The notes under the pieces: model-generated | Told to the model about the DNA's origin: nothing | The model's input: the letters and a program-made list of their open reading frames with translations, nothing else | Database searches by the model: none | Virus record (IMG/VR): IMGVR_UViG_3300031951_000015 | Location: 64,001 to 128,000 of that record | DNA: 64,000 bases | Source of the DNA: a virus | Strand: one strand, 5' to 3' | Shown here: piece by piece, positions 27,047-51,143 of the stretch | Numbering within the stretch: position 1 is the stretch's first letter | Layout of the letters: each line of letters begins with the position of its first letter | Translations under genes and position numbers: made by a program

Positions 27047-27328
27047 TAGGAGCGGCGAGACTTGAACTCGCATAGCCGAAGCCGACGGATTTTCTTACCA
27101 CTACGACTTTCGCCGCCTCATAGAGTTTGTGGTCTGGACTATACCTTCACCATATCTTGTGATTTAGGTGCTCCCCGTCTAGTCTCTACACCTTCATCTT
27201 TCGATGCTTGGCTCGGTATTGCCATTTTACAGGTTTCACCGAATTTGAGGAGTTACACTCATGAGGTTTCCCAAATGAGGCTCAATTTTACATAAGTCCG
27301 TTGTGTCTACCAATTCCACCACGCTCCC
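27047..27328 (-). tRNA. trnL: tRNA-Leu(UAA) interrupted by a group I intron
   Basis: 5' exon GGGAGCGTGGTGGAATTGGTAGACACAACGGACTT (27328-27294) + 3' exon AAAATCCGTCGG...GCGAGTTCAAGTCTCGCCGCTCCTA (27093-27047); anticodon stem ACGGA/TCCGT. Confidence 0.9.
27094..27293 (-). ncRNA. Group I intron (trnL-UAA type), 200 nt, no ORF
   Basis: Inserted after U34, ends in G; ATTGAGCC internal guide, AAATTCGGTGAAACC, GGCAATACCGAGCCAAG, GTGTAGAGACTAGACGG, AAGGTATAGTCC core elements. Confidence 0.88.
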
Positions 27329-27341
27329 GTGATGTGAGACC

Positions 27342-27370
27342 ATTATAACTCAAAGAGTTGTAGTGGTCAA
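27342..27370 (-). promoter_or_regulatory. sigma70 promoter TTGACC-N17-TATAAT for tRNA-Leu
   Basis: ggtcaa 27365-27370; attata 27342-27347. Confidence 0.7.
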
Positions 27371-27371
27371 G

Positions 27372-27445
27372 TGCAGGTTGTGGGGATCGAACCCACCTTA
27401 GCCGAATTATGAGTTCGGTGCTTTCAACCAGAGAGCTAAACCTGC
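27372..27445 (-). tRNA. tRNA with CAU anticodon (Met, or Ile2 if lysidine-modified)
   Basis: GCAGGTT acceptor stem, CCGAA-CTCATAA-TTCGG, GGTTCGATCCC T-arm. Confidence 0.88.
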
Positions 27446-27449
27446 ACGA

Positions 27450-27521
27450 TGGGAACAGCGGGAGTTGAACCCGCGCTAAGCACTTATAAGGTGCCCGCTC
27501 TAACCATTAAGCTATGCTCCC
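27450..27521 (-). tRNA. tRNA-Ile(UAU)
   Basis: GGGAGCA acceptor stem, GGCAC-CTTATAA-GTGCT, GGTTCAACTCC T-arm. Confidence 0.88.
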
Positions 27522-46762: not shown

Positions 46763-46790
46763 AAAAAAAGGAGGGAATCAATCCCTCCTT
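46763..46790 (-). terminator. Intrinsic terminator
   Basis: AAGGAGGGA-ttgat-TCCCTCCTT then a T-run on the minus strand. Confidence 0.8.
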
Positions 46791-46794
46791 TGAA

Positions 46795-46893
46795 TTATTT
46801 TGCCGCTACCAGCGTAGCAAGAGATGCTTGTTTACGACGTTGCTCTTTTTGCTTTTGCTCTTTAATGAGTTGAAGGAAATTGAGTTTTTTCAT
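46795..46893 (-). CDS. 32-aa basic peptide, possibly GifA/IF7-like
   Basis: MKKLNFLQLIKEQKQKEQRRKQASLATLVAAK; ATGA-coupled to DUF4278, with AGGAG RBS. Confidence 0.6.
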   Translation of the reverse strand: MKKLNFLQLIKEQKQKEQRRKQASLATLVAAK

Positions 46894-47027: not shown

Positions 47028-47058
47028 TGGTTTTCTCCTTAGTTTTTAGGTTAAAGAG

Positions 47059-47230
47059 CGTTCCTTCAGTCGGCTTTTGCGTCTACGAAGCAACCTTTTC
47101 TTGTAACTTGTTTAATCTCCCAAACAATATCATTCTTTTGTTGAGAAGTCAGTGTTTGGTTGATATTAACTTTACCAATCAAAAACTGTGCCTGTAAGCA
47201 AGTTAAGAAAAGTGCTTCCATAGATGAACG
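47059..47230 (-). ncRNA. Glutamine (glnA-type) riboswitch aptamer 2, with P2 loop expanded by an ORF
   Basis: 5' CGTTCA-TCTATGGAAGCA and 3' TGCTTCGTAGA-CGCAAAAGCCGACTGAAGGAACG; P1 CGTTC/GAACG. Confidence 0.72.
47066..47221 (-). CDS. 51-aa ORF nested in riboswitch aptamer 2
   Basis: MEALFLTCLQAQFLIGKVNINQTLTSQQKNDIVWEIKQVTRKGCFVDAKAD; paralog at 12920..13090. Confidence 0.65.
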   Translation of the reverse strand: MEALFLTCLQAQFLIGKVNINQTLTSQQKNDIVWEIKQVTRKGCFVDAKAD

Positions 47231-47234
47231 GCTT

Positions 47235-47285
47235 CGTTCCGAGTCGGCTTACTTCCGTTCGCTATTCGAAAATAGCGAATGAACG
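47235..47285 (-). ncRNA. Glutamine (glnA-type) riboswitch aptamer 1
   Basis: CGTTCATTCGCTATT-TTCG-AATAGCGAACGGAAGTAAGCCGACTCGGAACG matches the recalled glnA motif consensus. Confidence 0.85.
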
Positions 47286-47405
47286 TAAGGGTATTATACC
47301 CTTGTTGATCGTATTTATCAACAATATTTTGTAATTTTTTATACAGTTTTAGAAAACTTTAAGAATCAAAAATTTTGCCGGAAAATTTTCCCCCGATCTG
47401 GGAAA

Positions 47406-49727: not shown

Positions 49728-51143
49728 TTATCTTAGTTGGTAACCATTGATTGTAAATCCATATTGAGCACCACTACTATCTCCTATTAAACCAGTGTTT
49801 CCTCCATTTGATCCGCTGATAACCATTGTAAACGAAGATATGGTTTTTATCTCTCCAAGATTTGTCTTTCCTTGATAATCTGGAGTGTAAATGTAGGGGA
49901 ATTGAGTCCCAGATACATCGTTGATATAGAAATAACCAGGTTTTGGTGCTGTTGCTGGACCATTACCAGTAATCCAAGAAACTTTCAATGCCTGGGCACA
50001 CATGGGTGTTGCCAAAGCAAATCTCCAAGCAATAGTTGTCCAACCAGATGATATTTCATAATATCCACCAGCTAGATTAGTTGCACTCCCACCCCAAGCA
50101 GTAAATGGACCACCATTTATTGAATACGTTATACTACTACCAGGAATAGGTCCAGTTGCAGTGGTGCATGATAGTGGTGAATCTGTTCCAGTTAGATAAG
50201 CAACAATAACTCTCCCAGATCCCCCACTACCTCCGGAACCGCCACCACCACCGCCACCAGATCCGGTGTTTGCAACTCCGTTACCACCGGTGCCGCCATG
50301 ATTTCCTACGCCACCGCCACCAGATCCACCACTAGAACTTCCTACCCTAGATGCACCTCCGCCGCCGCCAGCAAAAAATTGAGAAGTTGGAGAGAAAAAT
50401 GGAGTTGCGTTTAACCAAGAAATAGGTGTTGTAGGAAGACCTGCGCCACCAACACCAGGTTGATCTGGTTGTCCTTGGATTCCTGCCCCACCAGCACCTC
50501 CTCCTCCACCACCTCCGAACCCGGGACCCCCTGAAGAGGAGGGTCCACCTTGATTTCCCAATCCGAAGATATTAGAATTAGTGGGTAATGCTGGATTGTT
50601 AACTTGATTTAATGGAGATATTGAATTGCCATATGTTCCACCAGGAGAACCACCTTGAGTTGTAAGTGGACTTGGTGTGTAATTTAATCCTCTACCTCCC
50701 CCCTGAGCAACCCAATCAGGTCCAAAAGTTGAATTGCTACCATTTGAACCAGGTGAATTAGATAATGATCCTGAACCTCCAGCACCTCCTCCTCCCACAA
50801 CAACATCATATGATCCTGAGGTTAAAGTTAAAGGTGCAATTATTACACCACCCGCACCGCCACCAGCTTGTCCACCATCACCAGGAGGATTATAAGAACC
50901 GCCACCACCACCTCCAATCAGTAATATATATGCTGCTTTTGGACCTCCAGTGGTTACAAAAGGATTTGGACCAGAACTGGCAAAATCATGATATGTATAA
51001 CTTCCTACCGTTGTTTTTGTTCCACCAGTTGCAGAAAAAGGTCCACCACCGACAGCACCACCAACAGGTGCTACATACCTCTTTCTTCCAAATCCGAAAG
51101 AAAATCCACCCCCACCACCAGTTCTTGATAAAATAGGACTCAT
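49728..51143 (-). CDS. Gly-rich adhesin-like fibre-tip protein with extra C-terminal domain
   Basis: ATGG...Y.YH.F, GGGGGG tracts, GGSG.VIVAY, then about 150 aa beta domain. Confidence 0.75.
   Translation of the reverse strand: MSPILSRTGGGGGFSFGFGRKRYVAPVGGAVGGGPFSATGGTKTTVGSYTYHDFASSGPNPFVTTGGPKAAYILLIGGGGGGSYNPPGDGGQAGGGAGGVIIAPLTLTSGSYDVVVGGGGAGGSGSLSNSPGSNGSNSTFGPDWVAQGGGRGLNYTPSPLTTQGGSPGGTYGNSISPLNQVNNPALPTNSNIFGLGNQGGPSSSGGPGFGGGGGGGAGGAGIQGQPDQPGVGGAGLPTTPISWLNATPFFSPTSQFFAGGGGGASRVGSSSGGSGGGGVGNHGGTGGNGVANTGSGGGGGGGSGGSGGSGRVIVAYLTGTDSPLSCTTATGPIPGSSITYSINGGPFTAWGGSATNLAGGYYEISSGWTTIAWRFALATPMCAQALKVSWITGNGPATAPKPGYFYINDVSGTQFPYIYTPDYQGKTNLGEIKTISSFTMVISGSNGGNTGLIGDSSGAQYGFTINGYQLR

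What the first reader, a model, noticed from the sequence alone, without database searches (positions are those of the whole stretch)
47059..47285. Tandem glutamine riboswitch with a whole gene nested inside the second aptamer
Seen: aptamer 1 is compact (47235-47285). Aptamer 2 begins CGUUCA-UCUAUGGAAGCA and resumes about 125 nt later with UGCUUCGUAGA-CGCAAAAGCCGACUGAAGGAACG. The two arms pair as an 11-bp P2 with one bulge. The AUG of a 51-codon ORF lies in the 5' arm of P2, its last codons (VDAKAD) are the conserved aptamer core, and its UGA stop is in GACUGAAGG. Inference: ligand binding or folding occludes the nested start codon, while translating ribosomes would melt the aptamer, creating a mutually exclusive switch between the nested peptide and the downstream DUF4278 operon. 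Covariance searches would probably miss the split aptamer. I do not know of this architecture being described.
Basis: partly seen in the sequence, partly recalled or inferred. Interest (0 to 1): 0.85.

Follow-up and report, generated by a model that had tools for sequence, protein, structure and literature searches.

The report
Gene nested inside phage glutamine riboswitch
In this freshwater cyanophage a real 51-codon gene sits inside one hairpin of a double glutamine-sensing RNA that heads a small operon; hundreds of cyanophages share the layout, standard riboswitch scans miss it, and I found no published description.

Summary
On the minus strand a promoter (47321-47293) starts an mRNA that opens with two glutamine-riboswitch cores. 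One hairpin (P2) of the second core closes around a 51-codon ORF (47221-47066): its AUG lies in the 5' arm and its UGA in the sensor core.

The ORF is a real gene. It has dN/dS 0.17, belongs to PHROG 504, has free-standing relatives elsewhere and gives a confident two-helix fold. Its first 2 and last 6 codons are also frozen at synonymous sites, which points to an RNA constraint.

The layout is widespread: 393 viral contigs carry this peptide family, and over 300 sequenced cyanophages, including Syn9 (gp197), carry the wider one.

The two sensors are interlocked, not side by side:
- The junction base of unit 1 pairs with the base after the last GAACG in 146 of 146 distinct leaders.
- The two units also share a covarying helix.

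Sensor folding and ORF translation must exclude each other. The regulatory logic (glutamine turns on the DUF4278-like gene and shuts off the nested gene) is inferred, not shown.

This scan has reported the same architecture on other genomes. I found no paper that describes it.

The parts
47293..47321 (-). Sigma-70-type promoter TTGATA-17-TATAAT. The predicted start lies about 47286, just before the first CGUUC.
   Evidence: 11 of 12 consensus matches. Relatives place TATAAT 6-7 nt before CGTTCA. Syn9 has the same arrangement.
47281..47285 (-). Strand a: CGUUC, the 5' strand of the outer P1. It pairs with strand d (47063-47059).
   Evidence: Invariant in relatives. The outer pairing is inferred from the capping-pair covariation. 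The unconstrained MFE also pairs a with d.
47258..47279 (-). P2-1, a compact 9-bp hairpin with a UUCG loop (P2 of the outer core).
   Evidence: Sequence and Rfam alignment. In 31 relatives this hairpin instead encloses a 59-68 codon ORF.
47250..47257 (-). Junction CGGAAGUA (E-loop half) of the outer core. G47255 is the capping-pair base.
   Evidence: Matches the RF01739 consensus. G47255 covaries with C47058.
47242..47249 (-). x: AGCCGACU, the 5' strand of the helix shared by both cores (P3).
   Evidence: Pairs with 47075-47068. Across 31 distinct junction combinations the paired fraction is 0.80 against 0.68 +/- 0.015 with shuffled partners, and 0 of 5000 shuffles reach the observed value.
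47235..47239 (-). Strand b: GAACG. With strand c (47230-47226) it forms the inner P1, capped by the linker AAGC (47234-47231).
   Evidence: The linker is always 3-5 nt. The base after b pairs with unit 2's junction C in 94.5% of leaders. The window itself has A there, giving a C-A mismatch.
47226..47230 (-). Strand c: CGUUC, the 5' strand of the inner P1.
   Evidence: Invariant, and lies 9 nt before the nested AUG in all 80 relatives.
47213..47224 (-). 5' arm of P2-2, UCUAUGGAAGCA. It holds the nested start codon AUG at 47221-47219.
   Evidence: Pairs with 47092-47082 as 11 bp with one bulge. Across ORF families the arms covary: mean contiguous stem 5.84 against 4.00 +/- 0.21 with shuffled partners.
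47066..47221 (-). Nested gene: 51 codons plus UGA, a member of PHROG 504. Predicted helix-loop-helix protein with two invariant cysteines.
   Evidence: - Codons 3-45: median dN/dS 0.17, pS 0.63. The end codons have pS 0.084.
- PHROG 504 matches the window at E 1.6e-4 and 56 of 62 family members, best 9e-31.
- AlphaFold2 mean pLDDT 88.6.
- Free-standing homologs have their own Shine-Dalgarno sites.
47093..47212 (-). Interior of P2-2 (the inserted 120 nt). In the window its two ends extend the helix by about 14 more pairs (47212-47199 with 47110-47095).
   Evidence: Seen in the MFE. In the family 84.8% of cells are paired against 41-51% when slid, but there is no significant covariation, and the structure was derived from the window itself.
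47082..47092 (-). 3' arm of P2-2, UGCUUCGUAGA (codons 44-47 of the nested gene).
47076..47081 (-). Junction CGCAAA of the inner core (C47079 is its capping-pair base). It also encodes part of D-A-K.
   Evidence: Invariant also at third codon positions. The same core occurs in the compact relatives S-CREM1 and P-TIM68, whose unit 2 scores 33.5 and 35.4 bits on RF01739.
47068..47075 (-). x': AGCCGACU, the 3' strand of the shared helix. The nested stop codon UGA is 47068-47066.
   Evidence: In 56 of 60 insert-bearing leaders from a pattern search, the ORF ends exactly at this U[GA]A.
47059..47067 (-). GAAG junction (47067-47064) and strand d, GAACG (47063-47059), the 3' strand of the outer P1.
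   Evidence: Matches the RF01739 consensus GAAGGAACG. Invariant in relatives.
47035..47058 (-). Expression platform. Anti-SD CUCUUUA (47058-47052) pairs with SD UAAGGAG (47041-47035). C47058 is both the capping-pair partner of G47255 and the first anti-SD base.
   Evidence: 7-bp hairpin of -4.7 kcal/mol, 72% of the ensemble. Conserved in most relatives. The same design was proposed for the gifB leader (PMC6212724).
46890..47027 (-). DUF4278-like (IF17-like) 45-aa gene, the regulated gene.
   Evidence: Pfam PF14105 E 0.001, 19.8 bits, below the cut-off of 25.3. PHROG 5049 E 5e-12.
46795..46893 (-). 32-codon ORF overlapping the previous stop codon (ATGA). It is probably the last gene of the unit.
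   Evidence: Only weak PHROG 545 and 13986 hits.
46767..46791 (-). Intrinsic-terminator-like hairpin followed by a U run: the end of the transcription unit.
   Evidence: 10-bp stem with 5 GC pairs, then TTTTATGG.

Best explanation
The mRNA of a small phage operon opens with an interlocked double glutamine sensor of the glutamine-I (glnA) type.

**Anatomy**
- The outer core is made of the first CGUUC, hairpin P2-1, the CGGAAGUA junction, a shared helix (x/x'), GAAG and the last GAACG.
- The inner core is a circular permutation built on the middle GAACG-linker-CGUUC hairpin, P2-2, the CGCAAA junction and the same shared helix.
- P2-2 closes around a complete gene for a 51-aa two-cysteine helical protein (PHROG 504). 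Its start codon lies in the 5' arm, and its last six codons and stop are sensor core.

**How it most likely works**
- A ribosome on the nested gene and the folded sensor cannot coexist. This follows from the anatomy.
- The AUG-bearing arm is transcribed about 130 nt before its partner. The nested gene is therefore probably translated mainly from nascent or unfolded RNA, and is shut off once the sensor closes. This is inferred.
- When the sensor is folded and glutamine-bound, the capping pair G47255:C47058 takes the first base of the anti-SD. That frees the Shine-Dalgarno site of the DUF4278-like gene, making an ON switch. This is inferred by analogy with the gifB leader.
For: **The gene is real**
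- dN/dS 0.17 with near-saturated synonymous change in mid-ORF.
- PHROG 504 membership and 378 cluster representatives.
- Non-nested homologs with ordinary SD sites.
- Mean pLDDT 88.6.
- 56 of 60 independent inserts are open from the arm's AUG to the core's U[GA]A.

**The sensor is maintained across the gene**
- Synonymous sites are frozen in codons 1-2 and 47-52: pS 0.084 against 0.63.
- The P2-2 arms covary.
- The in-silico deletion restores a full-length match at 56.1 bits.
- The cores are identical to those of the compact S-CREM1 and P-TIM68 riboswitches.

**The topology is interlocked**
- The capping pair is Watson-Crick in 146 of 146 leaders in the swapped register, against 60% in the side-by-side register.
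- It changes about 5 times on the ORF tree (at least 3 forced by well-supported branches) without ever breaking.
- The shared helix covaries.

**Expression platform**
- The anti-SD/SD hairpin abuts P1, as proposed for gifB (PMC6212724).
- The ligand contacts the first two P1 pairs and the junction G (PMC6698751), all of which are present in both cores.
Against: - No ligand-binding or expression data exist for this or any nested form.
- The window's unit 1 scores below Rfam's gathering score (31.2 against 35), and unit 2 is not detected at all.
- The window's inner capping pair is a C-A mismatch, because its linker starts with A.
- Nearest-neighbour energies do not separate the interlocked fold from the side-by-side fold (-60.8 against -61.7 kcal/mol).
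- P1 strands are invariant, so the P1 partners cannot be read from covariation directly.
- The long extension of P2-2 shows no significant covariation, and RNAalifold recovers only P1.
- P2 may form with or without glutamine, so glutamine control of the nested gene is uncertain.
- Relatives with a different platform (GGGA...UCUC) may use other logic.
Confidence: 0.55

Rival explanations
1. Translational coupling dominates. Ribosomes finishing the nested gene at UGA 47068-47066 melt P1 and the anti-SD hairpin 10-30 nt downstream. This drives translation of the DUF4278-like gene regardless of glutamine. The folded sensor then mainly acts as a brake on both genes (OFF with glutamine, or only a timer).
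For: The stop codon lies 8 nt before the anti-SD and 38 nt before the next AUG. The stop position is fixed in 56 of 60 leaders. In the marine AGUCGCG-type class, 25 of 27 ORF-bearing leaders have a GGAG-like linker against 0 of 6 compact ones, which suggests active initiation at the nested AUG.
Against: Compact relatives keep the same platform without any nested gene. The anti-SD/capping-pair competition mirrors the gifB ON switch. There are no data on coupling.
Confidence: 0.2
2. An ordinary side-by-side tandem. Unit 1 (47285-47235) and unit 2 (47230-47059) each fold on their own P1, and unit 2 merely has a long P2.
For: Each unit has CGUUCA...GGAACG ends. Rfam aligns unit 1 alone. Published work lists glutamine doublets as tandem, pseudo-cooperative systems (PMC9481103). 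Constrained energies are equal.
Against: - Read this way, unit 1 lacks GAAG and unit 2 lacks GGAAGUA.
- The capping pair fits the side-by-side register in only 58-60% of leaders, against 100% and 94.5% for the swapped register.
- The x/x' helix would be a pseudoknot between the two units.
- The linker is a fixed 3-5 nt, like a hairpin loop.
Confidence: 0.1
3. The sensor is a relic. A small gene was inserted into P2 and killed the aptamer. The flanks are conserved only as the gene's translation start and C-terminus.
For: Rfam does not detect unit 2. The window's inner capping pair is mismatched.
Against: - Third codon positions of the last six codons are invariant, while mid-ORF third positions vary freely.
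- Free-standing homologs end differently, so the protein does not need the DA(K/N)(A)D tail, and the tail has low pLDDT.
- Long-range pairs that span the ORF still covary.
- The layout persists in more than 300 isolates.
Confidence: 0.05
4. The insert is removed or cut at the RNA level (intron-like splicing, or RNase III cleavage of the long P2). This would leave a compact or two-piece sensor and a separate small mRNA.
For: In the window P2-2 can extend to about 25 bp. A two-piece glutamine-II sensor assembles in vitro (PMC6698751). Metatranscriptome contigs show a 'joint' from 47235 to 47083.
Against: That joint carries 19 other letters which form a compact P2 with a GAAA loop. It is a co-occurring compact relative, not a splice product. 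No intron family hits the region. Contigs from RNA libraries cover the ORF contiguously with no differences.
Confidence: 0.05

Closest known systems
Glutamine-I riboswitch (glnA RNA, Rfam RF01739), e.g. the Synechocystis gifB leader (PMC6212724); structure by Ren et al. 2015 as summarised in PMC6698751
   Same: - P1 formed by CGUUC and GAACG.
- The A that follows P1, then the P2 hairpin.
- The ACGGAAGUA and GAAG E-loop junctions, a P3 helix and a capping pair.
- An anti-SD next to P1.
- A DUF4278/IF17-like gene downstream.
   Different: - Two cores are interlocked on one shared P3, with swapped P1 strands.
- The inner core is circularly permuted and has a CGCAAA junction, like glutamine-II.
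- P2 encloses a protein gene.
- The element is phage-borne.
- It scores below the Rfam gathering score.
Tandem (doublet) glutamine riboswitches, described as pseudo-cooperative (Weinberg 2010, PMC2864571; Sherlock 2022, PMC9481103: 157 doublets)
   Same: Two glutamine aptamer-like units lie head to tail before one gene.
   Different: The covariation found here says the units are not independent: they have swapped P1 partners and a shared helix. No published account mentions an ORF inside an aptamer.
Group I introns with a homing-endonuclease ORF in a peripheral loop (PMC3984707)
   Same: A protein gene is carried in the loop of a peripheral helix of a structured, functional RNA. The helix must close across the ORF.
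   Different: Here the RNA is a ligand sensor, not a ribozyme. The ORF's start and stop lie inside the conserved core. The protein is not an endonuclease and shows no sign of mobility.
Leader-peptide attenuation, and long-distance-interaction control of the MS2 maturation gene (from my own knowledge, not tested here)
   Same: Ribosome occupancy of a short ORF, or the time window before a distal partner strand is made, decides which RNA fold forms.
   Different: The ORF here encodes a conserved, folded protein with free-standing homologs. It is not a codon-sensing leader. The competing fold is a metabolite sensor.

Membership tests
Glutamine-I riboswitch (RF01739) | Score at or above Rfam's gathering threshold (35 bits) | tested here: not met
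   Unit 1 scores 31.2 bits. Unit 2 gets no hit. Nothing is reported at the gathering threshold. Compact relatives reach 33.5-35.6 bits.
Glutamine-I riboswitch (RF01739) | P1 formed by CGUUC and GAACG, whose first two pairs contact glutamine | tested here: met
   Four invariant strands (47285-47281, 47239-47235, 47230-47226, 47063-47059) give two P1 helices. The ligand contacts are taken from PMC6698751.
Glutamine-I riboswitch (RF01739) | E-loop junctions ACGGAAGUA and GAAG flanking a P3 helix | tested here: met
   Both are present only when unit 1's junction is read together with unit 2's GAAG (the outer core). P3 is the covarying x/x' helix. The inner core has the variant junctions CGCAAA and CG.
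Glutamine-I riboswitch (RF01739) | Long-range capping base pair next to P1 | tested here: met
   G47255:C47058. Watson-Crick in 146 of 146 relatives, with both C:G and G:C, and about 5 co-changes on the tree, at least 3 of them forced by well-supported branches.
Glutamine-I riboswitch (RF01739) | Selective binding of L-glutamine | not testable with these tools
   Needs in-line probing or ITC.
Independent tandem (pseudo-cooperative) riboswitch | Each aptamer folds on its own P1 and capping pair | tested here: not met
   The side-by-side register gives 60% and 58% pairing. The swapped register gives 100% and 94.5%.
PHROG 504 (nested protein) | Profile match | tested here: met
   Window peptide: E 1.6e-4, profile positions 8-52 of 53. 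56 of 62 superfamily members match, best 9.2e-31.
DUF4278 (PF14105, IF17-like) | Pfam gathering score (25.3 bits) | tested here: inconclusive
   19.8 bits, E 0.001. PHROG 5049 E 5e-12. The YRG repeats and the position after a glutamine riboswitch fit PMC6212724.

The most novel reading that the evidence does not exclude
Cyanophages use a composite RNA device in which an interlocked double glutamine sensor encloses one or two paralogous protein genes. Ribosome traffic on the nested genes and glutamine then act as two competing inputs on one fold. This gives reciprocal or timed expression of the nested two-cysteine proteins and of an IF17-like regulator of host glutamine synthetase. It would also mean that riboswitches are common in phages and have been systematically missed because their aptamers are split by genes.
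Probability: 0.4. Interest if true: 0.9.

Novelty: new variant of a known kind. Interest (0 to 1): 0.85.

Why it matters
**A riboswitch feature not reported before.** Riboswitch aptamers are treated as compact non-coding units. Here a conserved protein gene lies inside one, with its start and stop codons in the sensor itself. Translation and ligand sensing must therefore compete on the same nucleotides. That kind of gene control has not been described for riboswitches in any paper I could search.

**Phage riboswitches may be undercounted.**
- A survey found only two glutamine aptamers in cyanophage genomes and concluded that phages rarely use riboswitches (PMC5473149).
- The nested form occurs in more than 300 sequenced cyanophages, and Rfam scans do not see it. 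Syn9 gives no hit even at E 0.1.

**Published doublets may need re-reading.** The interlocked topology suggests that the 'tandem' glutamine doublets in the literature should be re-examined.

**It can be tested.** Syn9 and its Synechococcus hosts are laboratory systems, and the downstream gene family is linked to inactivation of glutamine synthetase. The biology, phage control of host nitrogen assimilation, is therefore directly testable.

Tried and rejected
- **RNAalifold on 51 family members:** it gave only P1 and a few spurious pairs. The long P2 extension read from the window keeps 85% pairing but shows no covariation beyond shuffles. I claim only the P2 base, where arms covary between ORF families.
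- **Rfam with relaxed thresholds:** no family other than RF01739 fits. The other listed hits are noise.
- **cmsearch on an in-silico deletion:** I replaced it with an nhmmer profile of compact relatives.
- **Foldseek of the protein model against the PDB:** nothing at E <= 0.001.
- **ESM Atlas:** only unnamed clusters.
- **Pfam on the nested protein:** nothing.
- **tblastn of the window peptide against phage isolates:** only 3 freshwater isolates. The wider family appeared only with a marine member as query.
- **Cellular genomes:**
  - Peptide patterns found no relative.
  - The 14-base DNA pattern gave 120 chance matches, none with the unit 1 junction upstream.
- **Metatranscriptome contigs:**
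  - RNA-library contigs cover the ORF region without differences, but DNA carry-over cannot be excluded and contigs show no RNA ends.
  - The apparent 151-nt 'skip' is a compact relative, not splicing.
- **Constrained folding:** it does not separate the two topologies.
- **Papers:** Ames and Breaker 2011 (PMC3127080) is not held. A search for Syn9 transcriptome data on gp196-198 found nothing usable.
- **Glutamine-codon idea:** I considered a Gln-codon-sensing leader peptide, since the window peptide has 6 Gln. By eye, marine family members have few, so I dropped the idea without a formal count.

Full report
**Setting.** The window comes from a 174,667-bp IMG/VR virus record. It is a T4-like cyanophage: the neighbouring ORFs look to me like phoH and thyX, and the closest isolates are the freshwater Kyanoviridae phages S-SRM01, DSL-LC02 and DSL-LC03. 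Everything of interest is on the minus strand. A near-consensus promoter (TTGATA-17-TATAAT, 47321-47293) and a terminator (46791-46767) bracket one transcription unit. The unit contains the leader RNA, a nested 51-codon ORF, a 45-aa DUF4278-like gene and a 32-codon ORF.

**Check of the observation.**
- Unit 1 (47285-47235) aligns to Rfam RF01739 at 31.2 bits, below the gathering score of 35. A standard scan of the whole window therefore reports no riboswitch.
- Unit 2 is not detected at all.
- Its 5' part (CGUUCA plus arm, 47230-47213) and 3' part (arm plus core, 47092-47059) are separated by 120 nt.
- The arms pair as 5 + 6 bp with G47219 bulged. The AUG is 47221-47219, and the UGA (47068-47066) lies in GACUGAAGG.
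- I could not run the proposed cmsearch on a deleted sequence, so I built a sequence profile from 25 compact relatives instead. The window with the P2 interior replaced by a tetraloop matches full length (56.1 bits, E 8e-17). The native sequence matches as two pieces that break exactly at the P2 loop.

**The nested ORF is a gene.**
- Relatives of the peptide are encoded on 393 viral contigs. In all 80 fetched, CGTTCA lies 9 nt before the ATG and GGAACG follows the stop. 79 of 83 ORFs have 51 codons.
- In 51 distinct ORFs, codons 4-45 have high third-position entropy and near-zero second-position entropy.
- Pairwise pS is 0.63, pN 0.20, and median dN/dS 0.17.
- The peptide belongs to PHROG 504. 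A profile of 62 diverse members finds 378 cluster representatives, nearly all 50-60 aa.
- Two of those representatives, with different C-termini, sit in ordinary operon contexts with their own Shine-Dalgarno sites and no aptamer halves. The protein therefore exists independently of the riboswitch.
- AlphaFold2 gives a confident two-helix hairpin (pLDDT 88.6). Confidence is low only in the C-terminal DAKAD tail, and the two cysteines are the only invariant residues not dictated by the RNA.
- No fold or family match suggests a function.

**The sensor is maintained across the gene.**
- Codons 1-2 and 47-52 are invariant even at synonymous sites (pS 0.084). They coincide with the aptamer core found in compact relatives.
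- S-CREM1 has an annotated glnA riboswitch, and P-TIM68's unit 2 reaches 35.4 bits on RF01739.
- A pattern search for the junction between the units returned 100 true double leaders: 34 with a compact second P2, and 60 with a 125-180 nt insert.
- In 56 of those 60, an ORF runs from an AUG in the 5' arm to exactly the U[GA]A of the core. Three stop a few codons earlier and one runs on.
- The inserts belong to many sequence families, and their P2 arms covary (UCUA/UAGA, UCCC/GGGA, UCCU/AGGA, UUCC/GGAA). The mean contiguous stem is 5.84 against 4.00 +/- 0.21 with shuffled partners.

**Interlocked, not side by side.** Notes from this scan on other genomes suggested that the two cores are nested, and I tested this here.
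- Read side by side, unit 1 lacks the GAAG junction and unit 2 lacks GGAAGUA.
- Structural work shows that the junction base after ACG forms a long-range pair with the base following GAACG.
- In 146 distinct leaders, unit 1's base pairs with the base after the LAST GAACG in all 146 (87 C:G, 59 G:C). It pairs with the base after the first GAACG in only 60%.
- Unit 2's base pairs with the base after the first GAACG in 94.5%, and with the base after the last in 58%.
- On a tree built from mid-ORF codons only, the outer pair switches about 5 times (at least 3 forced by well-supported branches) and never breaks.
- The stretch after unit 1's junction pairs with the stretch before unit 2's GAAG. Compensatory changes include AGUCG/CGACU to AGUCA/UGACU, CAAC/GUUG, and U-A, G-C or A-U at the eighth pair. 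The paired fraction is 0.80 against 0.68 +/- 0.015, with 0 of 5000 shuffles reaching it.
- The consistent secondary structure is therefore: outer P1 (first CGUUC with last GAACG), P2-1, a shared P3, and inside it a hairpin of the middle GAACG-linker-CGUUC plus P2-2.
- Nearest-neighbour energies cannot separate this from the tandem drawing, and the P1 strands never vary. The assignment therefore rests on the capping pairs and the shared helix.
- In the window itself the inner capping pair is a C-A mismatch.

**Breadth.**
- A marine member of the protein family finds 310 phage records, including Syn9 gp197, Syn33, S-ShM2, S-CAM8 and the S-RIM12/14 isolates.
- A Syn9 leader query finds 361 records, most of which cover the stretch from unit 1's junction through the nested gene to the last GAACG.
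- In Syn9 both P2 hairpins carry a gene (gp196 and gp197), and Rfam reports nothing even at E 0.1.
- Across my loci, 31 leaders have an ORF in P2-1. That family is homologous to the P2-2 family (hhalign 96.4%, E 1.3e-9), aligning Cys-helix-loop-helix-Cys.

**Mechanism.**
- Shown by anatomy: the nested start codon is base-paired in P2-2 and lies 5 nt after an inner-P1 strand. The last codons and the stop are junction and shared helix. A translating ribosome and the folded sensor therefore exclude each other.
- Also shown: C47058 is both the capping partner of G47255 and the first base of a 7-bp anti-SD/SD hairpin (-4.7 kcal/mol) over the DUF4278-like gene's ribosome-binding site.
- Inferred: as proposed for gifB, glutamine binding favours the capping pair, weakens the anti-SD and turns the downstream gene on.
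- Inferred: the nested gene is translated mainly before its 3' arm is transcribed, or when the sensor is unfolded.
- A coupling model, in which ribosomes terminating at 47066 open the platform, is a serious rival.
- In one marine class, a GGAG-like linker accompanies ORF-bearing leaders (25 of 27, against 0 of 6 compact). This hints at active initiation there.
- Metatranscriptome contigs contain the ORF-bearing form without differences, alongside a more abundant compact relative. They cannot show RNA ends or translation.

**Literature.** Tandem glutamine riboswitches are known. 157 doublets have been counted and called pseudo-cooperative. A survey found only two glutamine aptamers in cyanophage genomes and concluded that phages rarely use riboswitches. 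The S-CREM1 paper annotates its compact form only. My full-text searches found no description of a gene inside an aptamer, or of interlocked glutamine cores. Ames and Breaker 2011 could not be read.

**Verdict.** This is a new architectural variant of a known riboswitch class. It is real, under selection at both the RNA and the protein level, and widespread. Its regulatory logic remains to be tested. The same architecture has been reported by this scan on other genomes. That does not change my score.

Noticed in passing
window 27117-27521 (-): Two adjacent tRNA genes (27450-27521 at 69.6 bits, 27372-27445 at 55 bits) are followed directly by a Group I intron match (27117-27303, 58.5 bits, above the gathering score). 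I did not identify the gene that hosts the intron.
   Followed up: no
L210 (Syn9, NC_008296.2) 455-935: Syn9 carries the same leader with genes in BOTH P2 hairpins: gp196 in the outer core, with its stop UGA in the 3' arm, and gp197 in the inner core. gp198 lies downstream. Rfam finds nothing there even at E 0.1.
   Followed up: yes
L016:347-550, L055:353-550, L150, L176 and others: ORFs nested in P2-1 (59-68 aa) have signal-peptide-like hydrophobic N-termini and two invariant cysteines. They are paralogs of the P2-2 family (hhalign 96.4%). All four combinations of compact and ORF-bearing P2-1 and P2-2 occur.
   Followed up: partly
window 47286-47302 (-); relatives such as L009, L012, L021: The -10 hexamer sits in the centre of an inverted repeat: AAGGG-TATAAT-ACCCTT in the window, and AGGTC-TATAAT-GACCT in many relatives. 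This may be a shared promoter-operator feature of these leaders.
   Followed up: no
L015, L033, L039, L044, L066 and others (downstream of the last GAACG): A second type of expression platform (GGGA...AUCUC hairpin, then AUUUCUUUAGGAG) always goes with the C:G form of the outer capping pair. The segment next to P1 is not complementary to the SD, so the logic may differ from the window's anti-SD design.
   Followed up: no
L001 (S-SRM01) 1697-1864: In S-SRM01 the core reads GACGGAAGG instead of GACUGAAGG. The nested ORF therefore loses its usual stop and runs 4 codons further, through the P1 strand.
   Followed up: no
marine AGUCGCG-type leaders (L094-L206): The linker between the units is GAG(C/U) in 25 of 27 ORF-bearing leaders, giving ACGGAG, a Shine-Dalgarno-like GGAG 11-12 nt before the nested AUG. 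None of the 6 compact leaders of the same class has it. I did not correct for relatedness.
   Followed up: partly
window 47083-47235, runs X1-X3: Aquatic metatranscriptome contigs hold a relative in which the nested gene is replaced by a 4-bp P2 with a GAAA loop. This compact form occurs in the same samples as the ORF-bearing form, at higher contig depth.
   Followed up: partly
window 49728-51143 (-): A 471-aa ORF that is extremely rich in glycine runs (GGGGG repeats) with a non-repetitive C-terminal part. I did not examine it.
   Followed up: no
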